Shown here: one piece after another, positions 6,084 through 59,995 of the stretch | Layout: each line of letters starts with the position of its first letter | Numbering within the stretch: position 1 is the stretch's first letter | NCBI GenBank assembly: GCA_947627505.1 | Contig: CANQWG010000004.1 | Coordinates: forward strand, 1 to 61,212 | Direction: 5' to 3' | DNA length: 61,212 nt | From: an uncultured Bacilli bacterium | GTDB taxonomy: Bacteria; Bacillota_I; Bacilli_A; RFN20; CAG-449 | Program-made: the position numbers and the translations under genes | The notes under the pieces: generated by a model | The model's database searches: none | What the model was told of the DNA's origin: nothing | Seen by the model: the letters and a program-made list of their open reading frames with translations, nothing else

Positions 6084-6118
6084 CAAAAAGTGTGTGTAAC
6101 GTGCGATTGGAGGTTTCA

Positions 6119-15613: not shown

Positions 15614-15820
15614 GACTAATTTAGGTCATAAATGGTAAAAGACGGATTTCGACGGCGTTTTTGATTATTTCGCATAATTACCATTATGTTAACCAATTTA
15701 AAAATAAATATTTATTTCTAGGCATTTTTAAACAATTGAAATCATTAATAAAATGCAATTTAAAAGCTCTTTTAATTTATTGTGAAAGTTTTCCACATAC
15801 CTTAAAAGAGCTTATTTTAA

Positions 15821-29294: not shown

Positions 29295-29472
29295 ATTATT
29301 CTCCATGACAAATCTACTTATACAATAATATTTATCAGTAGTTTTGTCAAAATTATTCAATAAAATGATAATAATTACTCAAATAATGACAGACACAAGT
29401 TTAAAAATATGACTTTAAATATAAAGTAATAAATAAAATTTTTTTATTAAGGTGCTAAATGACAATGTATTT

Positions 29473-29505
29473 AAAAAAAAGAATGATAAGAAACGTATCA
29501 TTCTT
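29473..29505 (-). terminator. Rho-independent terminator of the 676-aa lipoprotein gene
   Basis: The minus strand reads AAGAATGATA-CGTTTCT-TATCATTCTT followed by a T8 run. Confidence 0.65.
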
Positions 29506-31508: not shown

Positions 31509-31540
31509 CACTAACAATTCCTTTCTACACCACAAGCGAT

Positions 31541-44012: not shown

Positions 44013-45428
44013 CAGACGATAAAGTTCAAGATATTTATTCGCGGAGATTTTCCAATCAAAGCGCGCTTTTAAGGCATTTTTAGAAAGTTTTTTAAATAAA
44101 GTTTTATTTTTATAAAGATTGAAAGCCATGCCTATCGCCGATTCAAATGCCGATAATGAATAATGATAGATATAAAGTCCGTTGGCCGTATTGGGATTTA
44201 GCCCGGTGTAACCGATGACGGTATCTGCCAAACCGCCGACAGGACGAACAATCGGTAAGGCTCCGTAGCGCAAGGCGATGAGCTGTCCAATACCGCAGGG
44301 TTCAAATAACGAAGGCATCAAGAAAAAGTCACTCGCGGCATAGATAAGATGGGCTTCGTCTTCATCAAAACCGATGTGGACGTAGAGGTGTTCTGGATGT
44401 TCGTGATAAAGGAACGACAATTGATTTTCCAAATTGTATTCCCCAGTTCCAAGGACGATGACGTTGGCTCCGGTTTTAACGAGGGTCGGAATCACATCGT
44501 TGACCAATTCGATGCCTTTTTGAAAGGTCAAACGCGTGACGATTGCAAATAACGGCCTTTCTTCATCTTTTAACCCGAATTTTTTGATTATTTCCGCTTT
44601 GGCGCGTTTTTTGCCAAGCGCAAAATCGCCAAGCCCGTAATTTAAGGGCAAGAGGTGATCGCTTTTAGGATTGTAATATTTATAATCGATGCCGTTTAAA
44701 ATACCGACGATATCTTTTTCGCGCATTTTAAGAATCGGTTGCAACCCATAATCGTATTTGCCATTCAAGATTTCTTTCGCGTAATTTAAAGAGACGGTCG
44801 TGATTTTATCGCACGTTACTAACGCCGCTTTCATGAAGTTTACTTCCCCATTGAAACGAACAACGCCGCTATCGAAATAATAATCGTCGAGATTTAAATA
44901 ATCTCCGAGTTTCTCTTTGGCACAAATTCCTTGATAAGCGATATTGTGAATGGTGAAAACGTATTTGAATTTCTTTTTTCGCACTTCATAATCGCGCATC
45001 ACTAAAGGCAACATTCCCCCGTGCCAATCGTGAATGTGAATGATATCAAAATGAAGGTTCTTATTGATGATCAAACCCTTGATTGCCATCGTAAAAAACG
45101 AGAAACGTTCGATATCGTCATCGTAACCATATAGCTTATCGCGCATAAAATACGACTCTTGATCGATAAATAGGTACGTGATTCGTTTGTACTCTAAGCG
45201 ATAAACGTCGCATCTTTTCTTGCGCCATGACATTTGAACTTCAAAAGAAGCGAAAAGTTCTAACGCCTCAAACGAGATGTGTCTTAAAACTTCTTGATAA
45301 AGCGGAATAACGATCGTCACTTTTTGACGTCGTTCCACCAATTTGGAACTCAGTGAAAATAAAACATCGGCCAAGCCACCGCTTTTGGCAAATGGAAAGG
45401 CCTCGGAGGCCACCATTAAAACTTTCAT
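44001..45428 (-). CDS. glgA: Glycogen synthase
   Basis: MKVLMVASEAFPFAKSGGLADV, HDWH, and PSLFEPCGIGQL. Confidence 0.9.
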   Translation of the reverse strand: MKVLMVASEAFPFAKSGGLADVLFSLSSKLVERRQKVTIVIPLYQEVLRHISFEALELFASFEVQMSWRKKRCDVYRLEYKRITYLFIDQESYFMRDKLYGYDDDIERFSFFTMAIKGLIINKNLHFDIIHIHDWHGGMLPLVMRDYEVRKKKFKYVFTIHNIAYQGICAKEKLGDYLNLDDYYFDSGVVRFNGEVNFMKAALVTCDKITTVSLNYAKEILNGKYDYGLQPILKMREKDIVGILNGIDYKYYNPKSDHLLPLNYGLGDFALGKKRAKAEIIKKFGLKDEERPLFAIVTRLTFQKGIELVNDVIPTLVKTGANVIVLGTGEYNLENQLSFLYHEHPEHLYVHIGFDEDEAHLIYAASDFFLMPSLFEPCGIGQLIALRYGALPIVRPVGGLADTVIGYTGLNPNTANGLYIYHYSLSAFESAIGMAFNLYKNKTLFKKLSKNALKARFDWKISANKYLELYRLLVN

Positions 45429-46540
45429 TAAATTTTGTCTCCTTCTTTGATATATAACGGAATCTTTGCGTCTCCTTCCAATTTTCGCACATTTTCAATC
45501 GTCGCTTTTTTATCAATCACACAGTTTTCGATGATGGTACCGCTTTTGATCGTCGCTTCTGAAAAAACGATGCAGTTACGAACGTTGGCTCCCTTTTCGA
45601 TTTTGCAAGAACGAGAAATAATGCTAGAAGTCACTTTTCCTTCGATGATCGAACCATTAGCGATATAGGAATCGCGTACTTTAGCACTCGCAGTATAATG
45701 AACCGGAGGCGAATCGTAGGTACGGGTAAAAATCGGCCAATCTTCATCTAATAGACCTAAATTATCCTTTTTAAGAAATTCAAGCGAATATTTAAAATAG
45801 TGCTCTAACGAGTTGAAATTTCGTAAATATCCTTCGTATTCGTAAGTGTCGATTTCGATTTCCGAGCAGGCGTAAGAAAGAATATCCCGCAAGGAAAAAA
45901 AGCCACTCGCCCGTTGCGCCCGATTGAATAATTCTTCCAAAAAGTCACGGGAGATGACGTATGTTTCAAGCGAAATGTGCATATTGGTGACATTTCCGAA
46001 ATTTTTTTGAATCATTTTGACGCGTCTATGATGGTCGAGTATCAAACAATCACAATCGATGAAATCGTTCTTTTCACTCGGCTTGATGGTTTTATAAACC
46101 ATCGTGATTTTGCTCTTATTCTTGATATGTTGATGAATCACTTTTGAAAAATCGAGACGATAGATCAAATGACACGGAGCAATCAATACGTAATCGGCAT
46201 CGGCTTGATCGATGACCCACCGATTTTCAATAATGTTGTTGATGTCGTGATTATAAAGTGAATCGGCACCGCCCTTTTCGTTATACATCAAAGATAACGA
46301 ACCGATTTTAGTGTTCGCATTCCACATTTTGCCAGAACCGATGTGCTTAATCAAAGAACGTGGTTTTTCTTTCACCAAAATACCGATGGTATCGATTTTG
46401 GAATTAGAAAAGTTCGATAACGGAAAATCGACGAACGCAAACCGTCCTAAAAAAGACGCACTCGCCAACGGACGTGTTTCAGTTATTCCGCGAAGTTGCG
46501 GCGAATCGTGTAAGTTTACTAGGCCTAAAAATCGTGGCAT
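45428..46540 (-). CDS. glgD: Glucose-1-phosphate adenylyltransferase regulatory subunit GlgD
   Basis: 370 aa and GlgC-like, but it lacks the GGxGxRL motif. It sits between glgC and glgA as in Firmicutes. Confidence 0.8.
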   Translation of the reverse strand: MPRFLGLVNLHDSPQLRGITETRPLASASFLGRFAFVDFPLSNFSNSKIDTIGILVKEKPRSLIKHIGSGKMWNANTKIGSLSLMYNEKGGADSLYNHDINNIIENRWVIDQADADYVLIAPCHLIYRLDFSKVIHQHIKNKSKITMVYKTIKPSEKNDFIDCDCLILDHHRRVKMIQKNFGNVTNMHISLETYVISRDFLEELFNRAQRASGFFSLRDILSYACSEIEIDTYEYEGYLRNFNSLEHYFKYSLEFLKKDNLGLLDEDWPIFTRTYDSPPVHYTASAKVRDSYIANGSIIEGKVTSSIISRSCKIEKGANVRNCIVFSEATIKSGTIIENCVIDKKATIENVRKLEGDAKIPLYIKEGDKI

Positions 46541-46548
46541 AATGATCC

Positions 46549-47664
46549 CTACTTTCCTATTAAAACGATCTTCTTATCGTCGGGGTTGATCTTCCGCTCT
46601 TTAATAACTTCAACACCACTTGCGATAATCGCCTTATGAATTATCGCGTCGCGACGAATGATAGCCCCAGGCATAATCACCGAATCGTAAATCTCCGCTC
46701 CCTCTTCGATAATCACATCGGTAAAGATCACGGAGTGAAAAACTTTTCCGTCACATTTGACTCCTTGATTAATGATTGAATCAGAAATCAAAGCGTGATG
46801 ACCGATGTATTGCGGCAAGGAACGGGTGTCTTCTGAAAGTATTTTAAAACTATCGTCAGCGTATAATCCTAAAGGATCGCCGTCGATTAAATCCATGTTG
46901 GCGCGCCATAACGACTCGATCGTTCCAACGTCACGCCAATATCCAACATATGGAAAAGCGTACACTTTTAACTTTTGTTCGAGAATATAAGGAATGATGT
47001 TTTTACCGAAATCGTAATTATTATTGCCGCCGACTTTATTGCTGATGAGGACTTTCTTTAATATATCGTAATTGAAAATGTAAATTCCCATTGACGCGGT
47101 AAGAGAATCGCTCGCGGTCGGCTTTTCGATAAAGGCAGTAATTAAACGATTTTCATCGAATTTTAAAATCCCAAAACGCGAGACATCTTTCTTTTCGACC
47201 GTGATAGAAGCGATAGTAACATCTGCTTTCTTTTCTCGATGAAATGCCAACATCTTGGCATAGTTCATCTTGTAAATCTGGTCACCTGAAAGAATAATTA
47301 CGTATTTGGGATTTATTTCATCGATAAATTCGAGATTTTGATAAATCGCATCCGCGGTGCCTTGGTACCAGCTGATACCGTCTTCATGTTGTCTAGGCGT
47401 CAACACGCCGGTTTTAGAACGGTTGCCGTCGATTCCCCAATGAGATCCGTTGCCAATATAATTGTTTAAAGAGATCGATTCGTATTGGGTTAACACCCAG
47501 ACGTTATTGATCCCGGAATGAGCGCAATTTGACATCGTAAAATCGATGATGCGGTACTTTCCGCCAAAAAAGACCGCTGATTTCGCCATCTTTTTGGTTA
47601 AAGACTCTAATCTAGTACCCTTGCCACCGGCAAGAATCATCGCTACGATTTCAGTTTGCATCAT
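46549..47664 (-). CDS. glgC: Glucose-1-phosphate adenylyltransferase
   Basis: ILAGGKGTRLESLT, FGGKYRIIDF, and left-handed beta-helix repeats at the C-terminus. Confidence 0.9.
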   Translation of the reverse strand: MMQTEIVAMILAGGKGTRLESLTKKMAKSAVFFGGKYRIIDFTMSNCAHSGINNVWVLTQYESISLNNYIGNGSHWGIDGNRSKTGVLTPRQHEDGISWYQGTADAIYQNLEFIDEINPKYVIILSGDQIYKMNYAKMLAFHREKKADVTIASITVEKKDVSRFGILKFDENRLITAFIEKPTASDSLTASMGIYIFNYDILKKVLISNKVGGNNNYDFGKNIIPYILEQKLKVYAFPYVGYWRDVGTIESLWRANMDLIDGDPLGLYADDSFKILSEDTRSLPQYIGHHALISDSIINQGVKCDGKVFHSVIFTDVIIEEGAEIYDSVIMPGAIIRRDAIIHKAIIASGVEVIKERKINPDDKKIVLIGK

Positions 47665-48737: not shown

Positions 48738-49718
48738 TTAATTTAAATACAGAAATGATGAATGCTGGAAATCGATCTGATAGACGATAAGATCGCTTCC
48801 GCCACAATTTTCATGATCAAGTGTGACGGCGTTTATAGTATTGTTCCAATAGGTTTTAAAATAATAAATTAATTCTTTTAAATCGATGCAACATGAATAG
48901 ATGGTGTAGACACACCCTTGATTTTGATTTTTTACCGAACCTTTCAAGGGACTTACGGCGTCAAGGACATGAAAGAATTGTGCTACCGCTTCATCGTAAC
49001 TTTCGATTTGAAGACTATTACAGGTTAAAAAGCTCGCTTTGACAAACCGCGACGGCGAAGAAAAATCACCCGGAAGGCCTAATCCGCCCATCCCGTTTGA
49101 AAAAGGCATCAAATCGAGGGCTTGGCTAAATCGATTAGACGGGTATGCCGAAGTCAAATTGATATAATTGGCAATATTTTCCTGATGATAAGGAAATGGC
49201 GGATTATTGGTCATTACGTTGTACACATCATCGTAAACTTTAAGACCACTTTCAGTCGATTCGATGACTATCGATCGCTCGTTATCGGAAATCATCCAAT
49301 GTAATGGCACTGTCAACACGATCTCATCGAAACTTTTATCGACCAACTGTGTTTTTTTTATGATTTCTTTGACCTCTTGAATATTCTGACATTGTCTTAG
49401 AATGAATGGGATTATCTCAAATGGCGTGATGTTGACTTTGCTAGGATAAAACGGAAAATAATGCGAATTGCTCGGAAATTCTAAAGCCGCGATACAGAGT
49501 CCCTTTTCGTTTACCGCTTCAGCGTATAACGGATAATTTTTATAGACGGTCGCCATTCCTAGAATCGCTAAATGACGATCTTCAATTTCGCAATAATTGA
49601 ATTTAAACTGATAATTTCGCGGTGTAATCACGACCTTTTGCGCAAACATTTCGGCACTATCTAAAGTTCTTCCGAAAAATACTTGCTCTTTCCATTTCCA
49701 CCTAATCGCCGTACACAT
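48738..49718 (-). CDS. Choloylglycine hydrolase family (bile salt hydrolase / penicillin V acylase-like) Ntn hydrolase
   Basis: MCTAIRW... carries the nucleophile Cys2, taken from ATG 49718 behind an AGGTGA RBS. The longer track ORF (to 49997) overlaps the upstream gene and is rejected. Confidence 0.8.
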   Translation of the reverse strand: MCTAIRWKWKEQVFFGRTLDSAEMFAQKVVITPRNYQFKFNYCEIEDRHLAILGMATVYKNYPLYAEAVNEKGLCIAALEFPSNSHYFPFYPSKVNITPFEIIPFILRQCQNIQEVKEIIKKTQLVDKSFDEIVLTVPLHWMISDNERSIVIESTESGLKVYDDVYNVMTNNPPFPYHQENIANYINLTSAYPSNRFSQALDLMPFSNGMGGLGLPGDFSSPSRFVKASFLTCNSLQIESYDEAVAQFFHVLDAVSPLKGSVKNQNQGCVYTIYSCCIDLKELIYYFKTYWNNTINAVTLDHENCGGSDLIVYQIDFQHSSFLYLN

Positions 49719-49803
49719 ATAATCACCTAATAATGTATGTGCATCAAAAAAAAGAATTATGATAAGAAAACGGATAAAAAAAACTTCCTTTTCAGGAAGT
49801 TTT

Positions 49804-50268
49804 CTATTCATCGTAGTCGTCAAATTCATGTCTCTTTTTGCGTCTCTTTTTAAAGACCAAGAACGCGATAAGAGCCAAGATAACCCACAAACAGAGATAT
49901 GTGATTTCGTTGTTGATAATGTCAACGACAATTTGCGGTAAAGAAACAGATGACAATGAAGTTTTAATGAACTCGCAAATGATGGTGTTAACCACATCGA
50001 TTGGATGAGTTACAAGCGTAAGACCATAAGTGACATACGGCATATATCCATCGGTTTTACCAAAGAAATCTTTTAGTGCATCTAAATGAAGCACGAAATT
50101 TAAAATCGCCAAAAGCGCGATGAAATTGAAAAGTCCTGCAATCCAACTTCTAAAGCGACATACAAAGGATGAAAAGAAAATTGGAAGCAGCATCACGCCG
50201 ATGATGACTAAAGCTTGTAGAATATCAAGTGATTCAAACGGAAACACAACACCGAGAAGCATATTCAT
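49804..50268 (-). CDS. Small polytopic membrane protein, unknown function
   Basis: 154 aa with about 4 TM segments and a basic/acidic tail. It lies 67 nt downstream of the SMC-like gene. Confidence 0.45.
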   Translation of the reverse strand: MNMLLGVVFPFESLDILQALVIIGVMLLPIFFSSFVCRFRSWIAGLFNFIALLAILNFVLHLDALKDFFGKTDGYMPYVTYGLTLVTHPIDVVNTIICEFIKTSLSSVSLPQIVVDIINNEITYLCLWVILALIAFLVFKKRRKKRHEFDDYDE

Positions 50269-50335
50269 AATAATTTACCCACACTTTCATTTAGATTATA
50301 TTTTCTTTTAGCAATAAATGCAAGATATAAAATAT

Positions 50336-53300
50336 TTAAACACGGATTTCAAAGCGACCGACTTGAGAACGATTGTTATTTCTCGTCACGACCAAAGTTT
50401 CGTCGGCGATCTTCGAGATGTGTTGCACCTTATCTGGTGGTGCTGAAAGAATCACTTGAAGTCCGAATTTTTCAAGGATTGCAATTGCTTCGATAATTCT
50501 CGCGCTATCCATCTTTGAGAAAGCTTCGTCGAAGATCACAAGTCGTGTGCAATTAGAGGTGCTCTTACTACCATTGATACGATAAAGTTGCGAGAAAGAT
50601 GCCAAAATCGAAATATAGAACGGAGTCTGCGTCTCGCCCCCTGAAGCTTGATTGATCATGTAAGATAACGAATTGACGCGATCGCCTTTTTTCGAAAGTA
50701 AGTCAAACAACAGATAAGAACGATAATCGGTAAATTTAGCTACATTTTGTTCCAAAACCGCATTTTGATCGCGCGAATTAGAAACATCACCGATGGCTTT
50801 AAAGAGGCTATCCATCGTCTCTTTGTACTTTTCAAGATAAGTTTCATCATTGCCACTTGTCAAAAGCAGATCGTCCATAATCATGTTGTAGTAATCGAGA
50901 TATTCACTGCGTGGTTCGACGCGGAATTCATAGGTGTCTTCACCGAATTGCGAATCGCGAATCGCCTCATTTAGTTCCTCGATTCGGGCAATCGCCATAT
51001 TGATCGAAGTGTTAAGTTTATGAATAAAGTGATCTTTGAATTCTTTTGAAGCCTTTTCGTAAGCGTCTTGAATCTTTTCTTGATATTCCGGAAGTTTGAC
51101 GTCGCGGATGTTGATTAAATCGCGTTCGTAATCGTCATTGTTTTCGGCTTGTACATCGTAACTGAGGCGATAAGTGAGGACATAGTCGCGACGCAATTCA
51201 AACAAAGCCGCCTTCAGACTATTGATCTTATTTTGGGCTTTGATGTAAATTTCATCGTAACGTTCTCTTATCTGCGGTAATGAATCGCCAGTTTCCTCTT
51301 CGTTATGGAAAGTAACCATCGCCACATTGTTGACAAACTCTTGATCAAATTTTTCTTCTAGTTCTTTGAGCAAAGCAGAAGCAGTGTTCATTTCAAAAGG
51401 AATTTTTTCGTCATTGATATTTTGAATGGTGGCTTTTAAAGTACCCTTTTGCATTACCAATTCTTGAATCTCATTAGCGATATTTTCTAGATCGAGATTG
51501 ATCCGATTGATTTTCTCGTCGAGAACCGAAATTTCTGAAGAACCCGACTCTTCAAGTTCCGCTTCGTAAGTTTTTAAGTTACGGCGTAAACCTTCAAGAC
51601 TTTCAGCCTCATTTAAAGCAGCGGTGGCACTATTCAATTCGTTGTTGTTAATCACGTCTTGACCATTGACCTCTTGCAATAACGCGATCACCGTTCGATA
51701 AGTTTCGGCTAAATGTTCTTTTAAAGCCAGTTCTTCTTCGGTTTGCTTTAAACTCTCTTTTGAAATTTGGCGACCCAAAAGCGCGTATTTATAATTGCTT
51801 TCGGGAATCACAAATGAAGAGAAGTTTCGATAACCTTCACAGGTAGGAGTAATGCCACGACCTCTAGCACGAGCTTCGCTCAAATCGGCGCATTTGTAAA
51901 TGCGACCCATTAAGAAGTTGGTATAATCACGAGCCCCGTCATGGTCCGTTAAAATTTCTTCAGCCAAAGAATTGCGTTCCGCGATGAAATTTTGCTCATG
52001 TAATTTTTCACTGTCGACCAGCCCGGTTCGATAATAGTGATTGCGGCGCATGATTTCTGGTAAAATTCGATTGGCCGCATCGTAATACTCCTCTTCAACG
52101 AACATATTGAGTTTTTGCGAAGAGATAAAACCTTCGATAGCATTCACCCATTTTGGTGATTTGACATCGACCAAATCGGCGTAGATGTAAACTTTGATTT
52201 TTTTGCCATAATGATTGGAAAGCGCATTTTCGAGTTGATTGCGGACTTGAACTAATTGATAATCATAAAGTTTGCCGCCGATATCGCTATTAGCTTGTTG
52301 CTGTTTGGTATAATTGATATCTTGCACCAATGTCGCAAGATCTTTCTTCAAAGAAAAAGCCAATTCGCTACAGGCGCTTTTAAAAGCGATCGTCGCATCG
52401 CGGAAATCACCGATTACCTGCGGTTCGATATTTTCTTTCGTTTGAAGCACTTGGCGCAATTTGGAGGCAGTATCCCTAACATCTTTGCAAGCAGAAAGAA
52501 TCGCTTTAGAATCGATGCTTGACGTCAGTTGATCCTCTTTGAGACTTTCAAAGCAAGCTTCTACTTTATTCGCCAAATTATTAAATTCGTTGATATAGGA
52601 ACCGAATTTCTTTTGAATGTCGTTGATGCTTGCTTCAAGTCGTTCGATTTTCTCTTTGGTCCGCGTTCTTGAATTTTTCAAATCGGCGGTCAATTGATAA
52701 GCTCCGTTTCCAACTTTCGAAGCGATGTATTGTTCTTTTAAAGTGTTGAGTTCTTTGCTTTGATTTTCAAGTTCTTGAACTTCGCGATCGATTTCTTGAA
52801 GACGTTCCTTTGAAGCGGTGATATCATCGCGAAGCGTCTGTATCCGATTGAGATGCATTTGATAAGTCACACGTTTAGAAATGTAACTGGCTAGATTCAA
52901 TTCATCTTTTTTGCTAGCAAATTGATTGTAGACTTCTTGAATGTCTTCAAGTTTTTTGATTTTCACTTGCATAGCTTCCGCTTCAATTTCCAATTTTTTG
53001 TATTGGCGGATATTTTCCTGCATCACATCGATATTGATTTCGCTTGGAACATCACAAACATAATCGGTGATGAATTGTTCGATATTGGTGATCGGTTGAA
53101 AAGAGACTGCCTTTTTAAATAGCGAAAAATATTTATCGGACAAATTACCGAATTTCTTTTTGAGCAATTTTTGATATTGGGCGTTAGTTTCCGTAAAGAT
53201 AAAACGACCATCATAATTTTCTTTGAAGAATTCTAAAAGGGTCTCATATGACATCGGAACATCGTCAATCACGAAATTGTTGCTTGGGAATTCACTATCT

Positions 53301-53689
53301 AAAATGAAAAATTTGTGTTCTTCGCTACCATCGTCATAGACGTCAAAGACGATACCCATCGTGAAATCACAGTCTTCATAGTCATCGTGAAACTGCATCG
53401 CGATATAAGATGAAAAGCGACCGCTTCTTAAATAAGTGACACTCCCTTTTCCATCTCCCCCGGTTTGTCCCCGCAAGTAACTTTTCAAAGTACGACCGGA
53501 TTTTTCATTAGCGGCTTTGTTAAACGATCTTCCGGTAGTATCGCCAAGCAAAACCACTTGCATCGCATCGATGAGAGTCGATTTACCGGAAGCATTCTCA
53601 CCGGTCAAAAAGTTAACTTTACCGAACTCCATGGTTACATTTTGAAAATAATGCCAGTTAATTAGGCGCATTTTTGTTAATAATTTCAT
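50336..53689 (-). CDS. jetC: SMC-like ATPase, JetC/MksB-like
   Basis: 1117 aa. The N-terminal head has Walker A (LTGENASGKSTLIDA). A very long coiled-coil region rich in E/K/L/Q follows. The C-terminal head has SGGETQ (signature) and VIFDEAFSKMD (Walker B). Confidence 0.75.
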   Translation of the reverse strand: MKLLTKMRLINWHYFQNVTMEFGKVNFLTGENASGKSTLIDAMQVVLLGDTTGRSFNKAANEKSGRTLKSYLRGQTGGDGKGSVTYLRSGRFSSYIAMQFHDDYEDCDFTMGIVFDVYDDGSEEHKFFILDSEFPSNNFVIDDVPMSYETLLEFFKENYDGRFIFTETNAQYQKLLKKKFGNLSDKYFSLFKKAVSFQPITNIEQFITDYVCDVPSEINIDVMQENIRQYKKLEIEAEAMQVKIKKLEDIQEVYNQFASKKDELNLASYISKRVTYQMHLNRIQTLRDDITASKERLQEIDREVQELENQSKELNTLKEQYIASKVGNGAYQLTADLKNSRTRTKEKIERLEASINDIQKKFGSYINEFNNLANKVEACFESLKEDQLTSSIDSKAILSACKDVRDTASKLRQVLQTKENIEPQVIGDFRDATIAFKSACSELAFSLKKDLATLVQDINYTKQQQANSDIGGKLYDYQLVQVRNQLENALSNHYGKKIKVYIYADLVDVKSPKWVNAIEGFISSQKLNMFVEEEYYDAANRILPEIMRRNHYYRTGLVDSEKLHEQNFIAERNSLAEEILTDHDGARDYTNFLMGRIYKCADLSEARARGRGITPTCEGYRNFSSFVIPESNYKYALLGRQISKESLKQTEEELALKEHLAETYRTVIALLQEVNGQDVINNNELNSATAALNEAESLEGLRRNLKTYEAELEESGSSEISVLDEKINRINLDLENIANEIQELVMQKGTLKATIQNINDEKIPFEMNTASALLKELEEKFDQEFVNNVAMVTFHNEEETGDSLPQIRERYDEIYIKAQNKINSLKAALFELRRDYVLTYRLSYDVQAENNDDYERDLINIRDVKLPEYQEKIQDAYEKASKEFKDHFIHKLNTSINMAIARIEELNEAIRDSQFGEDTYEFRVEPRSEYLDYYNMIMDDLLLTSGNDETYLEKYKETMDSLFKAIGDVSNSRDQNAVLEQNVAKFTDYRSYLLFDLLSKKGDRVNSLSYMINQASGGETQTPFYISILASFSQLYRINGSKSTSNCTRLVIFDEAFSKMDSARIIEAIAILEKFGLQVILSAPPDKVQHISKIADETLVVTRNNNRSQVGRFEIRV

Positions 53690-53698
53690 AATGGCCTC

Positions 53699-54313
53699 CT
53701 AAAATTCTTCCCCTTCGAAGTTTTGAATATCTTCAAAGATTTTGTTGATTCTTTCATTGTCGATTACATAGAGAATCGATGGAAGAATATAAAATTGCAA
53801 ATTGCGATCGCGATAATCGCCGGAAATTCTAGCGATAATATTGTGCTGTTCCAAAAATCGGTAAGCAGTGGCAAAAGTAACCTGGGGAACCTTCTTATCA
53901 CTTCGCACTAGCGATTTGTCATTAAGAATTTTATTGACCTCAGATGCAGTAAAATATACTTCGGAGGTCGTTTGATTTTTTTCTTTTTCGCATTCATAGG
54001 CGTAACGTAAACAATAGATAATAAGCGACGTCATAAAATCGAGACGAATGCGATTATCTTGAAATTCATTGCTGATTATGATTACTCCAAGTCGAGAATC
54101 TTTTTCAACAATCCACCCCGTGTAAGCCAAATATTCGCGAATTAAATCGATGTTTCGTTCGACAAAATAATAATCGCGATTGGATTTTATAATTTTGCTA
54201 TGACGATCATAGTTTTCACGGAGTAAGAATGATTTAAGCATCAATTCGTTGACGATTCGCGCAAAATCGTCACGTTCATGTTCAGATAATTTGTTGTATG
54301 TTTCTTCGAACAT
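53699..54313 (-). CDS. jetB: JetB/MksE-like (DUF4194-like) subunit
   Basis: 204 aa, taken from ATG 54313 behind an AAGGGAG RBS. The pattern ARIVNELMLKSFLLRE...IREYLAYTGWIVEKDSRLGVI resembles DUF4194. It is sandwiched between the kleisin-like and SMC-like genes. Confidence 0.6.
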   Translation of the reverse strand: MFEETYNKLSEHERDDFARIVNELMLKSFLLRENYDRHSKIIKSNRDYYFVERNIDLIREYLAYTGWIVEKDSRLGVIIISNEFQDNRIRLDFMTSLIIYCLRYAYECEKEKNQTTSEVYFTASEVNKILNDKSLVRSDKKVPQVTFATAYRFLEQHNIIARISGDYRDRNLQFYILPSILYVIDNERINKIFEDIQNFEGEEF

Positions 54314-55745
54314 TCTTATTCTCCCTTCTTTCAAAAGTGTAGTTTGGCATCGAAAATTTTTCATTGACGAATTGGTCGATCGTCTTTTGATAATCGATGC
54401 TATAAAACGAATTGTAATCGTTGGATTTGACAGTACCAAGAATCAAATAGATAAAGTCATTGATGTTTTTAATATCGATTTCAGAGACCGTAACTTTATC
54501 GTTATCACCGAAAGCATCATCCATGAAATCGAGGACTTTATCGTCAGTAAACATCAAGTCTTCCTCATCGATTATCGAAGAGAAATCGTTGCTTTCGCTT
54601 TCTTCTTCGATCGTTAAAGGTGCAGTTTCAATGCGTTCACTGCGGTGAATCGGTTTTTGTAAACTATCAGCATCAAAATAACATTGACGAAAAAGCGTGA
54701 CCGAATTAGTGATATCGCGAATGATCGTCGGGTATGATTGTCCTTTTTCGTGACGTTCACCGGCTTCGGTCTTGGCAACCGCGAGAAAAATCGTCTCCAG
54801 TTTTCCTTTGATCGATTTATCATTGTTATTCAAATAAATCACTTTTTCAGCGCTCGCTTTAGTGTAAGCCGCGCGAGTCTTATCAATTTCATTCATTTCT
54901 AGCGATAAACGTGAATAAGTATCGCGGATATAGTTGATTTTATCGATAATTTGATTTTGAAGTTCCTCTAGTGTTGCTTCAGGTTGCTCGACTTTAGCTT
55001 GTTCAGCAATCTTTTCTAAAACACTTGGAGTAATCATCCATCGTTTAAGGATGATATTGATCGGTTCACTATAAAGAATTATCGAATCCGTAGTCTTTAA
55101 CGGGTGATATAAAGGATCCAAGACATCTTCTCGTGCAATATCAAAGTGCTGTCTTAATACATCGTTTGGTGTAAAAATCGTCGACAGTTGATTTTGAAAC
55201 ACGCGGATTGAATGATCTAATGTCGTCATTTGAAGCGAAAGATCTTTAGTGCGTGTCACAGCGTCATTCAATGCTTTATACATGTATTCGGGTTGTTCTT
55301 CATCGGCATTTTTCAATTCGATGTAAGTGGAATGAACGTTGCTTACGTAACGTGTCGAAGACGAATCGACGAATTCATAAATGATTTTAAGCAATGCTAC
55401 CGAATAACTGGGTACCAAAACATACTCGACTCCCGTTTTAAAATCAACATCAACCACAATCCATCCGGTATCGACCAAACGTCTAAAGACTAAATTGATT
55501 TTTGATTGTAAAGTGGGTTGAAAGATGACGTCGTCATCGACATCACCCTCTACCGAAACATCGAAAGTCTCCAAATCTTTATCGACTCGCCCCTTTAAAA
55601 GATCAATGTAGTCAGATTTACGGATTTTATTGCGATATATTGTAAGACAATCATATAATGCCACTAAAGCAACACCATAGATATTCTTATTTTTAGATGA
55701 CAAAATCGAGAAGAAATTCTCAGGAATTTTAGCAAATAAATTCAT
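54282..55745 (-). CDS. jetA: JetA/MksF-like kleisin candidate
   Basis: 487 aa and first gene of the three-gene operon (AGGAGG RBS). Assignment rests on size and position, plus an acidic linker before the C-terminal domain. I saw no unambiguous motif. Confidence 0.45.
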   Translation of the reverse strand: MNLFAKIPENFFSILSSKNKNIYGVALVALYDCLTIYRNKIRKSDYIDLLKGRVDKDLETFDVSVEGDVDDDVIFQPTLQSKINLVFRRLVDTGWIVVDVDFKTGVEYVLVPSYSVALLKIIYEFVDSSSTRYVSNVHSTYIELKNADEEQPEYMYKALNDAVTRTKDLSLQMTTLDHSIRVFQNQLSTIFTPNDVLRQHFDIAREDVLDPLYHPLKTTDSIILYSEPINIILKRWMITPSVLEKIAEQAKVEQPEATLEELQNQIIDKINYIRDTYSRLSLEMNEIDKTRAAYTKASAEKVIYLNNNDKSIKGKLETIFLAVAKTEAGERHEKGQSYPTIIRDITNSVTLFRQCYFDADSLQKPIHRSERIETAPLTIEEESESNDFSSIIDEEDLMFTDDKVLDFMDDAFGDNDKVTVSEIDIKNINDFIYLILGTVKSNDYNSFYSIDYQKTIDQFVNEKFSMPNYTFERRENKNVRRNIQQII

Positions 55746-55795
55746 GTTAAACCTCCTGTAATTATCATATCAAAAAAAAAAAACTAAAGATAGTC

Positions 55796-55836
55796 TAAAA
55801 AGTAATTTATTTTGCAATTTTCGATAGTTATTTTAA
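55796..55836. repeat. 41-bp direct repeat, left copy
   Basis: TAAAAAGTAATTTATTTTGCAATTTTCGATAGTTATTTTAA is identical to 59465-59505. It lies 51-91 nt upstream of the jetA ATG. Confidence 0.95.
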
Positions 55837-56150
55837 CGGCTTAATTAAAATAAAAAAATCAATTTTTAATTTGCCCACCAATAGTAGATTGATCCAATCA
55901 ATATTAAAACAATTTTACTCATAAAATTAAGAAAAAAAATATTATCGACGTATAAATCACCAACGTATTAATTGTGACCACAACAAGGATATTTTCGCAT
56001 ATCAAAACAAAAGTTATCTTTAATGTCTTTCACAGAAAAATGACATTAAAAAAACTTACAACCATCGACGTTATATGCATTAATATGATTGTAATAAATA
56101 ATGTGCTTTAAATTTCAAATCATACTTCAATATAGTTTTGCAAGAAAAAA

Positions 56151-57518
56151 TTAAATTCGTTCTTTTAAATTAACGGCTATCAACGCTTCTTCCAATTTAT
56201 CTTTAATACTTTTTATAAAACCTTCCTGCCCTAGAGAAACTATTTCATCATAAGTCCATTTATACTCAAGCAGTATTTCTGGTATGACAAGTACTGGATT
56301 TTTTTTACCCGTCAAATGCTCCTTTAGTGATAAAAAAGTTTGTTCATCAATCACTTTATCGTCATATAATTTTCGATAGAGATCTATCGCCTCTTGTGGC
56401 GTGCAAGTCTTTATCAAATTAATATTGTTTTTCCAATATGCAATATATTGATCTATAGAAGAAACAATCTTATGGTCATATGATGTATATGATTTTTTAA
56501 TGTTTCTTCCTCGTTTATACTGGAGGTGTAAAGTTTCACACAAAAAATCAATATGATCCTTTGAAAGTTCCAATCCATTAATTTCGCTCATCATTGAACG
56601 CGCACTTGATTGTTTAGGACCAAAAGCTAAAGATAAACTTATTGAATCACTTTTTATTATCAGATTAACTTCTCCAAGCCATTTATAATTTACTTTGCAT
56701 CTCCAAGTATTATACCTTCTTTTATCTATTGCGCCATTATGAACTTGTGAAAGAATTTTTTCTCCAAAAGGAATTGTTAATTTTTCTCTAATGCTTTCAT
56801 CTGATTGACAAGCAACAATAAAATTATCCAAACCAATATATCCTAAGATGGTCAAGTATTCGACAAATTGATTAGTGGTGAACGTATCAAGTGTAAGAAA
56901 CAAATCAACTATTTCGCTGTATTTTTTATAAATAACATTACTTTTGTTTTCCGTTATTAACAAACTTTTTTCAATGTGATTATTAATTTGATCGGGATTT
57001 AGATTGTGTAATTTGTTTTCTAAGGCAATAATGTATTGAGGATTTTCATCAATATAAATCAAAATCCATCCATCCGGAATCGAGCCATCTTTTTTGTTTT
57101 GTAGATAATCTTTAACTTCGTTTTCAGTTGCTTCCTTACATTCTCTTTCATCTTTTATTGTTATAGATAATTCATTGTAAATTGCTTTGTACAATTCTTT
57201 TTTGTTTTTAGTATCTTGACCACTAAATCCCCAACATTTACCCGTGGGACTAAATCCAAACATTATTCTATTATCGATAGGGAAACTTTTAATTCGATCT
57301 TCAGCTGGTTTTTTTTGAAGATAACAATCAACTTTTAAATTTCCCTCTTTCAAATCAATTGAAAACAATTTAGTAATAACTTTTCGCTTCAAATCATCAG
57401 ATAAACTGTCAATCGAATTAATAAAAGCTTTTGTTATATTATTTTCCAAATGTGGTTTTCCCTCATATTGCCAAAAAATATTCAAATGTGGATCTCTAAA
57501 ACTTTTATAATTTAACAT
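56151..57518 (-). CDS. PD-(D/E)xK-type nuclease-motif protein with a C-terminal domain of unknown function
   Basis: 455 aa with a GAGGAGA RBS. The N-terminal half shows a helix with conserved E (HLENNITKAF), then SIPDGWILIY...(13 aa)...IIALENKLH. That gives the PD...ExK arrangement of restriction-endonuclease-fold enzymes. No motif is recognised in residues ~200-455. Confidence 0.45.
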   Translation of the reverse strand: MLNYKSFRDPHLNIFWQYEGKPHLENNITKAFINSIDSLSDDLKRKVITKLFSIDLKEGNLKVDCYLQKKPAEDRIKSFPIDNRIMFGFSPTGKCWGFSGQDTKNKKELYKAIYNELSITIKDERECKEATENEVKDYLQNKKDGSIPDGWILIYIDENPQYIIALENKLHNLNPDQINNHIEKSLLITENKSNVIYKKYSEIVDLFLTLDTFTTNQFVEYLTILGYIGLDNFIVACQSDESIREKLTIPFGEKILSQVHNGAIDKRRYNTWRCKVNYKWLGEVNLIIKSDSISLSLAFGPKQSSARSMMSEINGLELSKDHIDFLCETLHLQYKRGRNIKKSYTSYDHKIVSSIDQYIAYWKNNINLIKTCTPQEAIDLYRKLYDDKVIDEQTFLSLKEHLTGKKNPVLVIPEILLEYKWTYDEIVSLGQEGFIKSIKDKLEEALIAVNLKERI

Positions 57519-57703
57519 TTTTTTCTCCTCTATTATTTTTGCGGGTTTTGAAGCATATTATTTTTCTAATAGATTTTTATCTAATTTCTAAAAATCATTT
57601 ATCAAATACGCAATATAATAAGTACCCTTAAATTTTTTATCATTATTTTACATTTGCTTTCTATTGCATCTTTTTATTTTGCTAGAATTGCAAACAATAC
57701 AAT

Positions 57704-57847
57704 TCATTTTTTATTACCTTTGACATATGGTAAATTTGAAGTTCTAACCGCTCTTTTTACAAGTTTTGACTGTTCTGCCAAATATTTGTTTCTATCCATG
57801 GGTCTATTAAGACTATCAATAAAAGCATTTGCAAGTTTTTTAAGCAT
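57704..57847 (-). CDS. Unlisted 47-aa basic ORF between the WYL gene and the nuclease-like gene
   Basis: MLKKLANAFIDSLNRPMDRNKYLAEQSKLVKRAVRTSNLPYVKGNKK, preceded by AAGGAG with an 8-nt spacer before the ATG. Confidence 0.45.
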   Translation of the reverse strand: MLKKLANAFIDSLNRPMDRNKYLAEQSKLVKRAVRTSNLPYVKGNKK

Positions 57848-57897
57848 AAATAAGCTCCTTGTTCATAATTTCATCTCTAAACGCAGCAAATTTTTAT

Positions 57898-58890
57898 TTA
57901 CTTTTTATATTTTTCTATTTGCGATGTTAGATGGTTTATAAATTTATCGATAAGTGATTTAGGTTCTAATAATTTAAATTCATCCCCGTATTGATTAATC
58001 CAATAAAACAATGCAGTTTCATCGCATTTCACTTTCGCATAGAGTTTACCATCTTTCTCGAAAATTTTTGCCTTTTTACCAAACCAATCATTTATATACT
58101 GAATTGCCCAAGATTTTTCTATAAGAATTAGAGCGTCAACAACTTCATTTGCAAACAAATAAATATGTTCATTTAAATATTTACTGATATCAAAATTTTC
58201 TATTCCATTGAGCGTATTTAACGGCTTAATTGTCCATTCTTCTTCGATTTTGGTTTCTATCATATAATCAATACGAAATGTCTGCAATGGTCTATATTTT
58301 TCTCGATAGTTGCATAATAAATAATATCTTCCAAAATTATTAATCAAAAAATACGGAGACACGATATATCGATATCCATTTCTTCGTACACAAGGATTAC
58401 CATTTTTGTCATAAGTCAAATACTTAAATGATATGCGCTTATTAGCTTTAATGGCATCCTCTATCAACTCAATATTATAGAAAATATCATGATTAGTTGT
58501 TCTTATAAGTTCATCACTTTTATAGATGTACGAGTAATTTTTTCTTTGATATTTACTTAAACACGAATTAACTTTCTGTGATAAATTTATAGCTTGCTTC
58601 CCTGTTATAGCCTTTGAAGAAAAAATTGCATCATTAATAAATCTCACTTCAGCAAGATCAAAGGTCCTAGAAAGCAGAGCGAAGCCACCTTTCGAACCTC
58701 TAACAATATCATAGTCAAGTTCTTCTAACAAATTCAAAGAAGAGCCTATACTTTTTCTCTCTAATTCGATTCCATATTGACGAGAAATTATACTCGCTAT
58801 TTCCATTTGTGTTAAATAATGTTCTTCATCGGTAAATTCATGTAAAACCTTAAGAACTAGAAGTATTGAGCTCTTTTTATTTTGCAGCAT
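57898..58890 (-). CDS. HTH + WYL-domain transcriptional regulator (BrxR/CapW-like architecture)
   Basis: An N-terminal winged HTH (ILLVLKVLHEFTDEEHYLTQMEIASII), a central WYL-type segment (RYIVSPYFLINNFGRYYLLCNY...LQTFRIDYM) and a C-terminal WCX-like extension. Confidence 0.7.
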   Translation of the reverse strand: MLQNKKSSILLVLKVLHEFTDEEHYLTQMEIASIISRQYGIELERKSIGSSLNLLEELDYDIVRGSKGGFALLSRTFDLAEVRFINDAIFSSKAITGKQAINLSQKVNSCLSKYQRKNYSYIYKSDELIRTTNHDIFYNIELIEDAIKANKRISFKYLTYDKNGNPCVRRNGYRYIVSPYFLINNFGRYYLLCNYREKYRPLQTFRIDYMIETKIEEEWTIKPLNTLNGIENFDISKYLNEHIYLFANEVVDALILIEKSWAIQYINDWFGKKAKIFEKDGKLYAKVKCDETALFYWINQYGDEFKLLEPKSLIDKFINHLTSQIEKYKK

Positions 58891-58955
58891 ACATTAACTC
58901 TCTTTTTTGTTTTTTAACTTAAAAAAATATTAATAAAAAATTAATGTCGCAAAAA

Positions 58956-59141
58956 TTATTTGTTCAAGAGCATTGTTAGAAGATTTCCTTGACCAATTTT
59001 ACGGCCAGAGGCATCTCTTGTGACCTTGCCATCAAATTCACCTAACTTGCGTCCACTAGCGTCTCTAATGATTTGTCTCGTTCCGTAATCTTGGATTTCA
59101 CCAATTTTACGACCAGTTCTGTCTCTTAAAACTTGATTCAT
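58956..59141 (-). CDS. 61-aa tandem-repeat miniprotein
   Basis: Three copies of RD(R/A)(T/S)GRK(I/L)G: RDRTGRKIGE, RDASGRKLGE, RDASGRKIGQ. A strong AAGGAGAG RBS lies upstream. Confidence 0.5.
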   Translation of the reverse strand: MNQVLRDRTGRKIGEIQDYGTRQIIRDASGRKLGEFDGKVTRDASGRKIGQGNLLTMLLNK

Positions 59142-59161
59142 TTTTTACTCTCCTTTTTTTA

Positions 59162-59290
59162 TTATTTTATCATATCAAGTGTCCGATTTTTAGTACTTGT
59201 AATACTCCTATCAGTTATATTCATTAATAAACCATCATCAACTAATGCATGCCTAAAGTAAACATAATTAAAAGCGAGGTACTTTTTCAT
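59162..59290 (-). CDS. Possible 42-aa ORF at the head of the cassette operon
   Basis: MKKYLAFNYVYFRHALVDDGLLMNITDRSITSTKNRTLDMIK. It has a weak GGAAG RBS and ends 20 nt before the 61-aa ORF. Confidence 0.2.
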   Translation of the reverse strand: MKKYLAFNYVYFRHALVDDGLLMNITDRSITSTKNRTLDMIK

Positions 59291-59464
59291 TTTTTTACTT
59301 CCATAATTAATTAATGTCAATAAGAATGCTTTTTGTATATAAATTATAATTTATGCCAAATATAAATGGTTGTTTTAATAGTAAAAATATTAATTTATAT
59401 TTTCGTGCTTCATTAAACATTTAAGTTTATGAATTTTTAAAAATATTAAATTCCGTAATAGAGG

Positions 59465-59505
59465 TAAAAAGTAATTTATTTTGCAATTTTCGATAGTTAT
59501 TTTAA
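59465..59505. repeat. 41-bp direct repeat, right copy
   Basis: Identical to 55796-55836. Confidence 0.95.
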
Positions 59506-59548
59506 TGAGGCATTTTTTGTGATAAACTCATAGTGAGAGGTCAACAAA

Positions 59549-59995
59549 ATGAAACTTAAACCATATATAAAAATACCTTTGATTTCCAATAGTGTAATTA
59601 CTTTATTTGCTTTGATTATCGTCTTTTTAATTTACTTTGACGTTCATCATATGACGATGCCAATCGAAGGTCTTATTTTCATCGGTGCGGTTCTTGTTGT
59701 CGCCATCATTTACACTATTTTATTAATCGTTAAAACTGAATACTTATTAATGGATGACACCTTTACTTACAAAGCCATCTTCAAAAGCATGACTTACGAT
59801 TATAAAGATGTGATTTTTATCGCCGATCAACATGCCATTAAAGGACATCACTTGACGATTTATTTTTACGATGGTCGTTCCCTTGCATTAGTAACCGACA
59901 AAGAAAACACTCTCGGTCAAGAGTTGAAAAAAAGATGCCCTCAAACGATCGACGAAACGGAATTTCATAATCGTTATCCAGGCATCAAATTATAA
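59549..59995 (+). CDS. Membrane protein of unknown function
   Basis: 148 aa with two N-terminal TM segments plus a soluble tail. GAGAGG RBS. Confidence 0.5.
   Translation: MKLKPYIKIPLISNSVITLFALIIVFLIYFDVHHMTMPIEGLIFIGAVLVVAIIYTILLIVKTEYLLMDDTFTYKAIFKSMTYDYKDVIFIADQHAIKGHHLTIYFYDGRSLALVTDKENTLGQELKKRCPQTIDETEFHNRYPGIKL

What the first reader, a model, noticed from the sequence alone, without database searches (positions are those of the whole stretch)
50336..55745. Wadjet/Mks-like jetA-jetB-jetC operon without a JetD (Toprim nuclease) gene
The operon is tightly packed, with overlapping or abutting ORFs. It encodes a 487-aa kleisin-like protein, a ~204-aa DUF4194-like protein and an 1117-aa SMC-like ATPase with Walker A, SGGE signature and DEAF Walker B. 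That is the JetABC/MksFEB arrangement. In described Wadjet systems a JetD/MksG Toprim nuclease gene follows jetC. Here the next genes are a 154-aa membrane protein and a bile-salt-hydrolase-family enzyme. No ORF in the window shows the JetD-type E...DxD Toprim pattern. The operon may act as a nuclease-less condensin, may be a decayed Wadjet, or may work with a different effector. The only nuclease-motif gene nearby is the 455-aa protein in the adjacent cassette.
Basis: partly seen in the sequence, partly recalled or inferred. Interest (0 to 1): 0.7.

Follow-up and report, generated by a model that had tools for sequence, protein, structure and literature searches.

The report
Nuclease-less Wadjet SMC operon, chromosomally fixed
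This is a plasmid-defence SMC machine (Wadjet JetABC) that lost its DNA-cutting subunit long ago and has since been kept as a core chromosomal operon across a whole clade of uncultured gut and digester Bacilli, so it offers a natural test of the idea that bacterial condensins such as MukBEF/MksBEF evolved from defence systems.

Summary
On the minus strand lie jetA (54282..55745), jetB (53699..54313) and jetC (50336..53689). All three give strong type-I Wadjet profile matches, and the ATPase motifs are intact. A JetD profile finds nothing in any frame of the 61-kb contig.

The loss is not local decay. In 41 related loci (JetC 34-99% identical), jetABC always lacks jetD. It sits among housekeeping genes, usually directly upstream of glgC-glgD-glgA. 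These loci form one clade with 100/100 bootstrap support. Nearly all relatives outside the clade carry jetD right after jetC. dN/dS for jetA, jetB and jetC is 0.01-0.14, the same as for the neighbouring glg genes.

The 455-aa "nuclease-motif" gene belongs to a WYL-regulated cassette. The cassette is bounded by a perfect 41-bp direct repeat, is absent from same-species relatives, and occurs elsewhere without jetABC. It is not the effector.

Best reading: one ancient JetD loss domesticated a Wadjet into an MksBEF-like, nuclease-free loop-extruding complex that acts on the host chromosome.

Two things could not be tested: whether JetD is encoded elsewhere in these genomes, and whether Smc-ScpAB is still present. 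I rate this a new variant of a known kind, of moderate interest.

The parts
54282..55745 (-). jetA, 487-aa kleisin subunit
   Evidence: Pfam JetA PF18982 1.1e-75 covering 40-474; PADLOC JetA1 1.5e-104 covering 1-477. Present in 39 of 41 clade loci; the other two are truncated contigs. dN/dS 0.03-0.10.
53699..54313 (-). jetB, 204-aa KITE subunit (DUF4194). It starts at the ATG that gives MFEETY and overlaps the end of jetA by 32 nt.
   Evidence: DUF4194 5e-17; PADLOC JetB1 1.3e-63. The start is supported by the alignment of N-termini across 80+ loci. dN/dS 0.03-0.19.
50336..53689 (-). jetC, 1117-aa SMC-like ABC ATPase: Walker A at 30-38, signature SGGE at 1016-1019, Walker B DEAF at 1054-1057
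   Evidence: PADLOC JetC1 E=0, 1058 bits, full length. AAA_29 and SbcC_Walker_B. The motifs are invariant in alignment A2. The closest solved structures are the JetC chains 9qxt and 8as8, then 8dk1/8dk2. dN/dS 0.01-0.11.
55746..55855 (-). jetA leader and promoter region that is conserved with same-species loci, including the RBS AGGAGG at 55757..55752
   Evidence: Homology with L001/L002 runs from inside jetA up to 55855 and then breaks. Sequence read. No promoter is established; the consensus scan found no more sites than shuffled sequence.
44001..47664 (-). glgC-glgD-glgA, the conserved syntenic partner block downstream of jetC. This is context, not a subunit.
   Evidence: glgC/D follow jetC in 32 of 41 clade loci and glgA in 30. 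The jetC-glgC gap is only 15-65 bp in eight members. JetC and GlgC pairwise identities correlate: Pearson 0.82, Mantel p=0.001.
59549..59995 (+). 148-aa membrane protein ('p150' family), the ancestral divergent neighbour of jetA. This is context and a possible accessory gene.
   Evidence: An HMM of the family hits 17 of 41 JetD-less clade loci and no JetD+ locus. The gene is always divergent from jetA and usually less than 120 bp away. It has no Pfam, PADLOC or NCBIfam family.
55837..59505 (.). Not part of the system: a strain-specific insertion carrying p455 (56151..57518) and a WYL-WCX regulator (57898..58890). It is bounded by a perfect 41-bp direct repeat (55796-55836 / 59465-59505).
   Evidence: Repeat found. 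Synteny with L001/L002 breaks here. GC content is 27-29%. p455 and WYL are absent from every other jetABC locus. Homologues occur elsewhere without jetABC: directly next to a WYL gene in L092, and one gene away from a WYL gene inside a defence island in L093/L094.
49804..50268 (-). 154-aa membrane protein downstream of jetC. It is shared only by the window's subclade and appears to have its own promoter-like TTGCAT-17-TATAAT.
   Evidence: No family hits. phmmer homologues occur only in L001, L002 and L006-L008. Intergenic sequence read.

Best explanation
The operon encodes a complete three-subunit SMC complex of Wadjet type I ancestry: a JetC ATPase dimer, the JetA kleisin and a JetB KITE dimer. 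The fourth gene, the Toprim nuclease JetD, was lost once in the ancestor of a large clade of uncultured, sporulating Bacilli (Erysipelotrichales-like MAGs from gut and anaerobic digesters). The three genes have since been inherited vertically as a core chromosomal operon, ancestrally placed between a small divergent membrane-protein gene and the glycogen operon glgCDA.

Without JetD the complex cannot cleave DNA. The most likely activity is ATP-driven DNA entrapment and loop extrusion on the host chromosome, giving compaction or segregation support of the MksBEF/MukBEF kind. That would make it a domesticated Wadjet.

Shown here:
- the identity of the three proteins and their intact ATPase motifs;
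- the absence of JetD from the contig and from 41 related loci;
- monophyly of the JetD-less clade;
- the housekeeping gene context;
- strong purifying selection.

Inferred:
- that the complex extrudes DNA loops (by homology with characterised JetABC);
- that its substrate is the chromosome (by analogy with P. aeruginosa MksBEF, and from the core-genome behaviour).
For: (1) Family identity. ATPase motifs invariant.
(2) No JetD in the window by tblastn, PADLOC and a dedicated HMM.
(3) No JetD within +/-8-10 kb of jetABC in 41 loci with JetC 34-99% identical. In relatives outside the clade, JetD starts immediately after jetC in all but four of the loci with enough downstream sequence to judge.
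(4) On a JetC NJ tree the JetD-less loci form a single bipartition, with bootstrap 100/100.
(5) The neighbours are housekeeping genes (pulA, plsC, ftsK, rpmB, relA, glgCDA, leuS). glgC follows jetC in 32 of 41 loci, with 15-65 bp gaps in eight, which suggests co-transcription.
(6) dN/dS is 0.01-0.14 for jetA, jetB and jetC, the same as for glgC and glgA. JetC and GlgC divergences correlate (r=0.82, Mantel p=0.001).
(7) JetC shows no relaxation: 105 columns are conserved in both groups, 13 only in JetD+ relatives and 17 only in the JetD-less clade.
Against: - There are no functional data of any kind.
- The window is one contig of a MAG, so a JetD gene elsewhere in the genome is not excluded. 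The only test available was weak: the top 120 JetD-profile hits in the protein collection were not on the clade's long contigs.
- The short N-terminal JetB motif (MFEE) is retained and resembles that of JetD+ relatives (MWxE/MFEE). If this motif is the counterpart of the JetD-docking IFDR motif, its retention is unexpected. The equivalence could not be established, because the PDB JetB matches only at E=0.62 and not at the N-terminus.
- Whether these genomes still have Smc-ScpAB is unknown.
- Chromosomal action is by analogy only. Core-genome conservation would also fit a nuclease-independent anti-plasmid role.
Confidence: 0.6

Rival explanations
1. It is still a working Wadjet. JetD, or a functionally equivalent nuclease, is encoded elsewhere in the genome and joins JetABC in trans to cleave small circular DNA.
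For: The JetB N-terminal motif is conserved in JetD-less and JetD+ relatives alike. JetC shows no loss of constraint.
Against: In the JetD+ relatives sampled, jetD is always the next gene after jetC. In 41 clade loci, many on contigs of 100-900 kb, none has it within +/-8-10 kb. Among the top 120 JetD-profile hits, the named ones are mostly Clostridia (one is labelled only 'Bacillota bacterium'), and none has a longest-contig length equal to those listed for the clade's JetC clusters. An unlinked nuclease stably co-inherited over this depth of divergence would be unusual for Wadjet.
Confidence: 0.12
2. It provides nuclease-free immunity. JetABC still recognises small circular DNA by complete extrusion and stalling, and restricts it without cutting, by compaction, silencing or mis-segregation, as proposed for Smc5/6 on episomes.
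For: Its ancestry is clearly a plasmid-sensing type I Wadjet. [quoted passage not shown] In the window the operon abuts a variable insertion slot that holds a defence-type cassette.
Against: The distribution is core-genome, vertical and syntenic, and selection is at housekeeping level. Defence systems are normally patchy and mobile. The variable slot holds non-defence cargo (BspA-type LRR proteins) in L001/L002. No non-cleaving Wadjet has been described in the papers I could read.
Confidence: 0.15
3. It is a decaying remnant of a Wadjet system that lost JetD recently and is on its way to pseudogenisation.
For: JetD is missing. Elsewhere, some JetD+ lineages show split jetD ORFs (L056-L062) and sporadic JetD-less loci (L052, L065, L083, L089), so loss does recur.
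Against: All three ORFs are full length in every one of the 41 loci where the contig permits. The catalytic motifs are invariant. dN/dS is 0.01-0.14. The JetD-less state spans JetC divergence down to 34% identity.
Confidence: 0.02
4. JetABC has swapped effector and now works with the adjacent 455-aa PD-(D/E)xK-like protein, or with another neighbour such as the 154-aa or 148-aa membrane proteins.
For: p455 has invariant D149/E167/K169 and lies 405 bp upstream of jetA. The 148-aa 'p150' family is found only in JetD-less loci and always divergent from jetA.
Against: p455 and WYL form an insertion flanked by a perfect 41-bp repeat. They are absent from same-species L001/L002 and from all other jetABC loci, and occur elsewhere without jetABC. 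The 154-aa gene is limited to one subclade. p150 is missing from about 20 clade loci that have enough upstream sequence. Apart from glgCDA, no gene family other than jetA, jetB and jetC is present throughout the clade.
Confidence: 0.04

Closest known systems
Type I Wadjet / JetABCD (E. coli GF4-3, P. aeruginosa PA14; = MksBEFG of C. glutamicum, EptABCD of M. smegmatis)
   Same: The three core subunits and the gene order jetA-jetB-jetC are the same. The best PADLOC models are JetA1, JetB1 and JetC1. The only PDB sequence matches are JetC chains. Relatives outside the clade carry a canonical JetD1.
   Different: There is no JetD gene in the operon or the contig. The operon is not in a mobile or defence context: it is fixed next to glgCDA and other housekeeping genes across a deep clade. 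It is distant in sequence from the structurally characterised proteobacterial systems (JetC head only, E 1e-14; JetA and JetB have no PDB match).
MksBEF of Pseudomonas aeruginosa (nuclease-less Muk-like condensin; also mycobacterial MksB)
   Same: It is a kleisin-KITE-SMC operon without the nuclease. [quoted passage not shown]
   Different: The origin looks independent. Here the proteins still score as type I JetABC, the JetD+ relatives sampled outside the clade are Firmicutes type I Wadjets (names), and the host is a Gram-positive spore-former.
MukBEF of gamma-proteobacteria
   Same: The architecture is the same (SMC-like ATPase, dimerising kleisin, KITE dimer), and MukBEF is hypothesised to derive from Wadjet. 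It is a core chromosomal operon.
   Different: JetC reaches only 18.5 bits on Pfam MukB_N (cut-off 23). MukBEF replaced Smc-ScpAB; whether that happened here is unknown.
Smc-ScpAB
   Same: ABC-type SMC ATPase with long coiled coils, plus kleisin and KITE partners.
   Different: JetC scores 34 bits against TIGR02168 (cut-off 567). JetA and JetB are not ScpA or ScpB. It is not a member.

Membership tests
Wadjet type I (JetABCD) | JetA kleisin subunit | tested here: met
   PF18982 255 bits (cut-off 26.2); PADLOC JetA1 1.5e-104, full length.
Wadjet type I (JetABCD) | JetB KITE subunit (DUF4194) | tested here: met
   PF13835 62.5 bits (cut-off 32.7); PADLOC JetB1 1.3e-63.
Wadjet type I (JetABCD) | JetC SMC-like ATPase with intact Walker A, signature and Walker B motifs | tested here: met
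   PADLOC JetC1 1058 bits over 1-1114; motifs invariant in A2.
Wadjet type I (JetABCD) | JetD Toprim/CAP nuclease encoded with jetABC | tested here: not met
   No hit in the window by tblastn, PADLOC or a 35-sequence JetD HMM at E<=10. Also absent from 41 related loci. The rest of the genome was not searchable.
Wadjet type I (JetABCD) | ATP-dependent cleavage or restriction of small circular DNA | not testable with these tools
   Needs biochemistry or plasmid assays.
Nuclease-less Wadjet-derived condensins (MksBEF/MukBEF kind) | kleisin-KITE-SMC operon that stably lacks the nuclease gene | tested here: met
   The JetD-less state is shared by a monophyletic clade (bootstrap 100/100) with JetC identity down to 34%.
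Nuclease-less Wadjet-derived condensins (MksBEF/MukBEF kind) | Core-genome behaviour: conserved chromosomal position, vertical descent, purifying selection | tested here: met
   Synteny with glgCDA, leuS, pulA and plsC. dN/dS 0.01-0.14. Co-divergence with GlgC. There was no species tree to reconcile against.
Nuclease-less Wadjet-derived condensins (MksBEF/MukBEF kind) | Sequence membership in MukB/MksB families | tested here: not met
   Pfam MukB_N 18.5 bits, below the cut-off of 23. No MukB chain appears among the PDB hits. The case therefore rests on working like MksBEF, not on orthology to it.
Nuclease-less Wadjet-derived condensins (MksBEF/MukBEF kind) | Contribution to chromosome organisation or segregation | not testable with these tools
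   Needs Hi-C, ChIP or genetics.
Smc-ScpAB | Match to the SMC equivalog model, with ScpA/ScpB partners | tested here: not met
   TIGR02168 34 bits versus cut-off 567. The partners are JetA and JetB.

The most novel reading that the evidence does not exclude
In this clade of uncultured sporulating Bacilli, the Wadjet-derived JetABC has not merely been added to Smc-ScpAB but has replaced it as the main chromosome-organising SMC complex. That would be a second, Gram-positive takeover parallel to MukBEF, caught at a stage where the proteins are still recognisably type I Wadjet and JetD-bearing relatives still exist outside the clade.
Probability: 0.1. Interest if true: 0.85.

Novelty: new variant of a known kind. 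Interest (0 to 1): 0.55.

Why it matters
Reviews of the SMC field propose that MukBEF and MksBEF began as Wadjet defence systems that were "locked" into chromosome maintenance when the nuclease was lost. That proposal rests on distant structural resemblance.

This clade supplies a much closer natural case:
- The proteins are still unmistakably type I JetABC.
- Relatives outside the clade still carry JetD.
- There appears to have been a single loss event.
- The operon has since behaved like a housekeeping locus.

This makes the domestication hypothesis directly testable. One can add JetD back from a JetD-bearing relative, ask whether JetABC alone affects plasmids or chromosomes, and compare genomes for loss of Smc-ScpAB.

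There is also a practical point. Defence-system annotators that count JetABC hits may over-call Wadjet in these genomes.

Tried and rejected
- Looked for JetD remnants in the window with a single JetD, with PADLOC on all ORFs and with a custom HMM. Nothing was found.
- Tried to settle whether Smc-ScpAB is present. This says nothing about whole genomes, and those queries are unverified recollections.
- Tried to test whether the JetB N-terminal motif equals the published JetD-docking IFDR motif. A profile search of the PDB reached PA14 JetB only at E=0.62 and not at the N-terminus. Inconclusive.
- Scanned JetC for rate shifts that would mark a lost JetD interface. The group-specific conserved columns are few, symmetric (13 versus 17) and scattered. 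No signal.
- The promoter and terminator consensus scan gave counts equal to shuffled sequence. Uninformative.
- Foldseek of a confident p455 model (pLDDT 90.5) against the PDB gave no match better than E=0.097, so the nuclease assignment stays at motif level.
- Literature searches for JetD-less Wadjet in Firmicutes found only general statements about MksBEF. One Erysipelotrichales paper (Bulleidia) reports a complete JetABCD.
- Considered the downstream 408-aa gene in L045 as an alternative effector. It is ComFA-like, followed by a phosphoribosyltransferase-domain (ComFC-like) gene.


Full report
**What is there.** Three tightly packed ORFs lie on the minus strand: 54282..55745 (487 aa), 53699..54313 (204 aa from the ATG) and 50336..53689 (1117 aa).
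- They score as JetA (Pfam PF18982 1e-75; PADLOC JetA1 1.5e-104), JetB (DUF4194 5e-17; JetB1 1e-63) and JetC (JetC1, 1058 bits, full length).
- JetC keeps Walker A (G30..GKST38), the SGGE signature (1016-1019) and Walker B DEAF (1054-1057). These columns are invariant in an alignment of nine homologues down to 31% identity.
- The only sequence matches in the PDB are JetC chains (9qxt, 8as8, 8dk1, 8dk2).
- JetC scores 34 bits against the SMC equivalog model, whose cut-off is 567, and falls below the Pfam MukB_N cut-off.

**JetD is absent.** I first verified a genuine JetD in a distant relative: L005, PADLOC JetD1 9.5e-116, placed directly after jetC.
- tblastn with that JetD finds nothing in the window at E<=10.
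- A PADLOC scan of the other 114 stop-to-stop ORFs lists no JetD.
- A JetD HMM built from 35 JetDs found in related loci gives zero hits in the window, even with filters off and E<=10.
- The window is the entire 61,212-bp contig of a MAG. The rest of the genome is out of reach.

**The loss is ancient, single and fixed.** I collected 96 related loci from genome, metagenome and assembly collections.
- In 41 of them jetABC lacks jetD within +/-8-10 kb. This group includes the window, its 98-99% identical relatives L001/L002, and loci whose JetC is only 34-55% identical.
- Outside this group, jetD starts immediately after jetC wherever the contig leaves room. The exceptions are four sporadic loci (L052, L065, L083, L089).
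- On a JetC neighbour-joining tree the 41 JetD-less loci form one bipartition, recovered in 100 of 100 bootstrap replicates.
- The JetD+ relatives outside the clade, where named, are mostly Clostridia. Named clade members are 'Bacilli', 'Erysipelotrichales' or 'Erysipelotrichaceae' MAGs.
- The window's organism is a spore-former: spo0A, spoIVB and spoIIIAH are present.

**It behaves like a housekeeping locus.**
- Clustering all neighbouring ORFs shows that only jetA, jetB and jetC are found throughout the clade. Next come glgC/glgD (32 of 41 loci) and glgA (30 of 41) directly downstream.
- In eight members the jetC stop and the glgC start are 15-65 bp apart, which suggests one transcript.
- Other neighbours are pulA, plsC, ftsK, relA, rpmB, leuS, xseAB and recN.
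- dN/dS is 0.03-0.10 for jetA, 0.03-0.19 for jetB and 0.01-0.11 for jetC. This equals glgC (0.03-0.13) and glgA (0.04-0.21).
- JetC and GlgC pairwise identities co-vary (Pearson 0.82, Mantel p=0.001).
- A column-by-column comparison shows no relaxation of JetC in the JetD-less clade: 105 columns are conserved in both groups, 13 only in JetD+ relatives and 17 only in JetD-less ones.
- Together these results reject the 'decayed Wadjet' option.

**The 455-aa neighbour is not the missing effector.**
- Homology with same-species loci L001/L002 stops 110 bp upstream of jetA (55855) and resumes near 59385-59513.
- The intervening low-GC segment carries the WYL-WCX regulator and p455. It is bracketed by a perfect 41-bp direct repeat (55796-55836 and 59465-59505).
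- L001 and L002 hold BspA-type LRR genes at the same slot.
- p455 homologues occur near WYL genes elsewhere with no jetABC nearby: directly adjacent in L092, and one gene away in L093/L094, whose defence islands also carry SIR2, GIY-YIG and NERD genes.
- p455 does have an invariant D149...E167-x-K169 pattern and a confident AlphaFold model (pLDDT 90.5). No PDB fold match supports a nuclease fold.

**Mechanism.**
- By homology with characterised type I JetABC, the complex should be a dimer of SMC motor units that entraps DNA and extrudes loops using ATP.
- Without JetD it has no cleavage module.
- Given the core-genome behaviour, the most likely substrate is the host chromosome. [quoted passage not shown] - This clade looks like an independent, Gram-positive instance of that process. 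I put 0.6 on this reading.

**What remains open.**
- (a) A trans-encoded JetD cannot be excluded without the full genomes. The one indirect test was negative but weak: the top 120 JetD-profile hits were not on the clade's long contigs.
- (b) The JetB N-terminus (MFEE...) is as conserved in the JetD-less clade as in JetD+ relatives. Type I JetB is reported to dock JetD's aCAP through an N-terminal IFDR motif. I could not establish whether MFEE is its counterpart.
- (c) A nuclease-independent anti-plasmid role is possible.
- (d) Whether Smc-ScpAB coexists is unknown. One cultured Erysipelotrichaceae member, C. innocuum, is reported to have Smc-ScpAB (PMC10197239), so outright replacement is a low-probability but high-interest reading.

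**Verdict.** It is sharpened to: a domesticated, nuclease-less type I Wadjet derivative fixed in the core genome of an uncultured Bacilli clade. The kind of system (MksBEF-like) is known. This lineage, its independent origin and its glgCDA linkage were not described in the papers I could search. Interest is moderate (0.55), mainly because it makes the Wadjet-to-condensin domestication hypothesis experimentally tractable.

Noticed in passing
window 15668..15695 (core 15672..15692): A dif-like site, ATTTCGCATAA-TTACCA-TTATGTTAACC, resembles the E. coli dif sequence as I recall it (not checked here). It sits in the 300-bp gap where gene orientation converges (+ genes end at 15554, - genes start at 15854) and GC skew flips from + to -. 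The core is unique in 1.43 Mb of related loci at <=1 mismatch. An XerD-like recombinase (18945..19838; TIGR02225 325 bits, cut-off 329.6) and parE/parC (6092..10658) are nearby. The contig probably spans the replication terminus, with jetABC about 35-40 kb from dif.
   Followed up: partly
window 55796..59505: A 3.7-kb low-GC insertion bounded by a perfect 41-bp direct repeat carries a WYL-WCX regulator (57898..58890) and an uncharacterised 455-aa protein (56151..57518). That protein has invariant D149/E167/K169, a confident AlphaFold model and no PDB fold match. The family has 79 hits, and its members occur near WYL genes (adjacent in L092; within defence islands in L093/L094). This is a candidate new two-gene defence module.
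   Followed up: partly
window 58989..59127: Three copies of a roughly 31-nt repeat (TTCACCAATTTTACGNCCAG...) spaced 48-60 bp apart lie just upstream of the WYL gene. They may be operator sites for the regulator.
   Followed up: no
window 59549..59995; also L009-L011, L013-L016, L018, L019, L021, L022, L029, L030, L042: A family of roughly 150-aa proteins (two TM helices plus a C-terminal domain ending ..EEF..RFP..) is encoded divergently, usually less than 120 bp upstream of jetA. It occurs in 17 of 41 JetD-less loci and in no JetD+ locus, and has no known family. It is either ancestral synteny or a clade-specific accessory gene.
   Followed up: partly
L015-L018, L021, L023, L027, L029: The jetC stop and the glgC start are only 15-65 bp apart, so jetABC and the glycogen-synthesis genes glgCDA may form one transcription unit in these members. 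From memory, the B. subtilis glg operon is sporulation-regulated, which hints at stationary-phase or sporulation expression.
   Followed up: no
L056-L062: In these JetD+ relatives jetD is split into two or three consecutive ORFs that each match the JetD profile. This suggests frameshifts and ongoing JetD decay in another lineage. L052, L065, L083 and L089 lack JetD sporadically.
   Followed up: no
window 28668..31535: A low-GC patch (29.5% at 28-30 kb) holds an AbiEi-like antitoxin/regulator (28668..29360; PF13338 6e-9; the PADLOC AbiEi hit of 1e-60, which the PADLOC output did not tie to a specific ORF, probably belongs to it) next to a 676-aa protein with no Pfam or NCBIfam hit (29505..31535). 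This may be an AbiE-like pair with an unusual toxin.
   Followed up: no
window 48738..49997: The 419-aa ORF of the choloylglycine hydrolase overlaps the 154-aa gene. The Pfam match starts at residue 95 (CTAIRW), so the real start is probably the Met at 49718, which gives the usual N-terminal Cys nucleophile. Among the jetABC loci, this gene is found only in the window, L001 and L002, so it is a recent addition between jetC and glgC.
   Followed up: partly
window 50269..50335: The 67-bp jetC-to-154-aa-gene spacer contains a near-consensus promoter-like TTGCAT-17 bp-TATAAT, so the downstream membrane-protein gene may be transcribed on its own.
   Followed up: no
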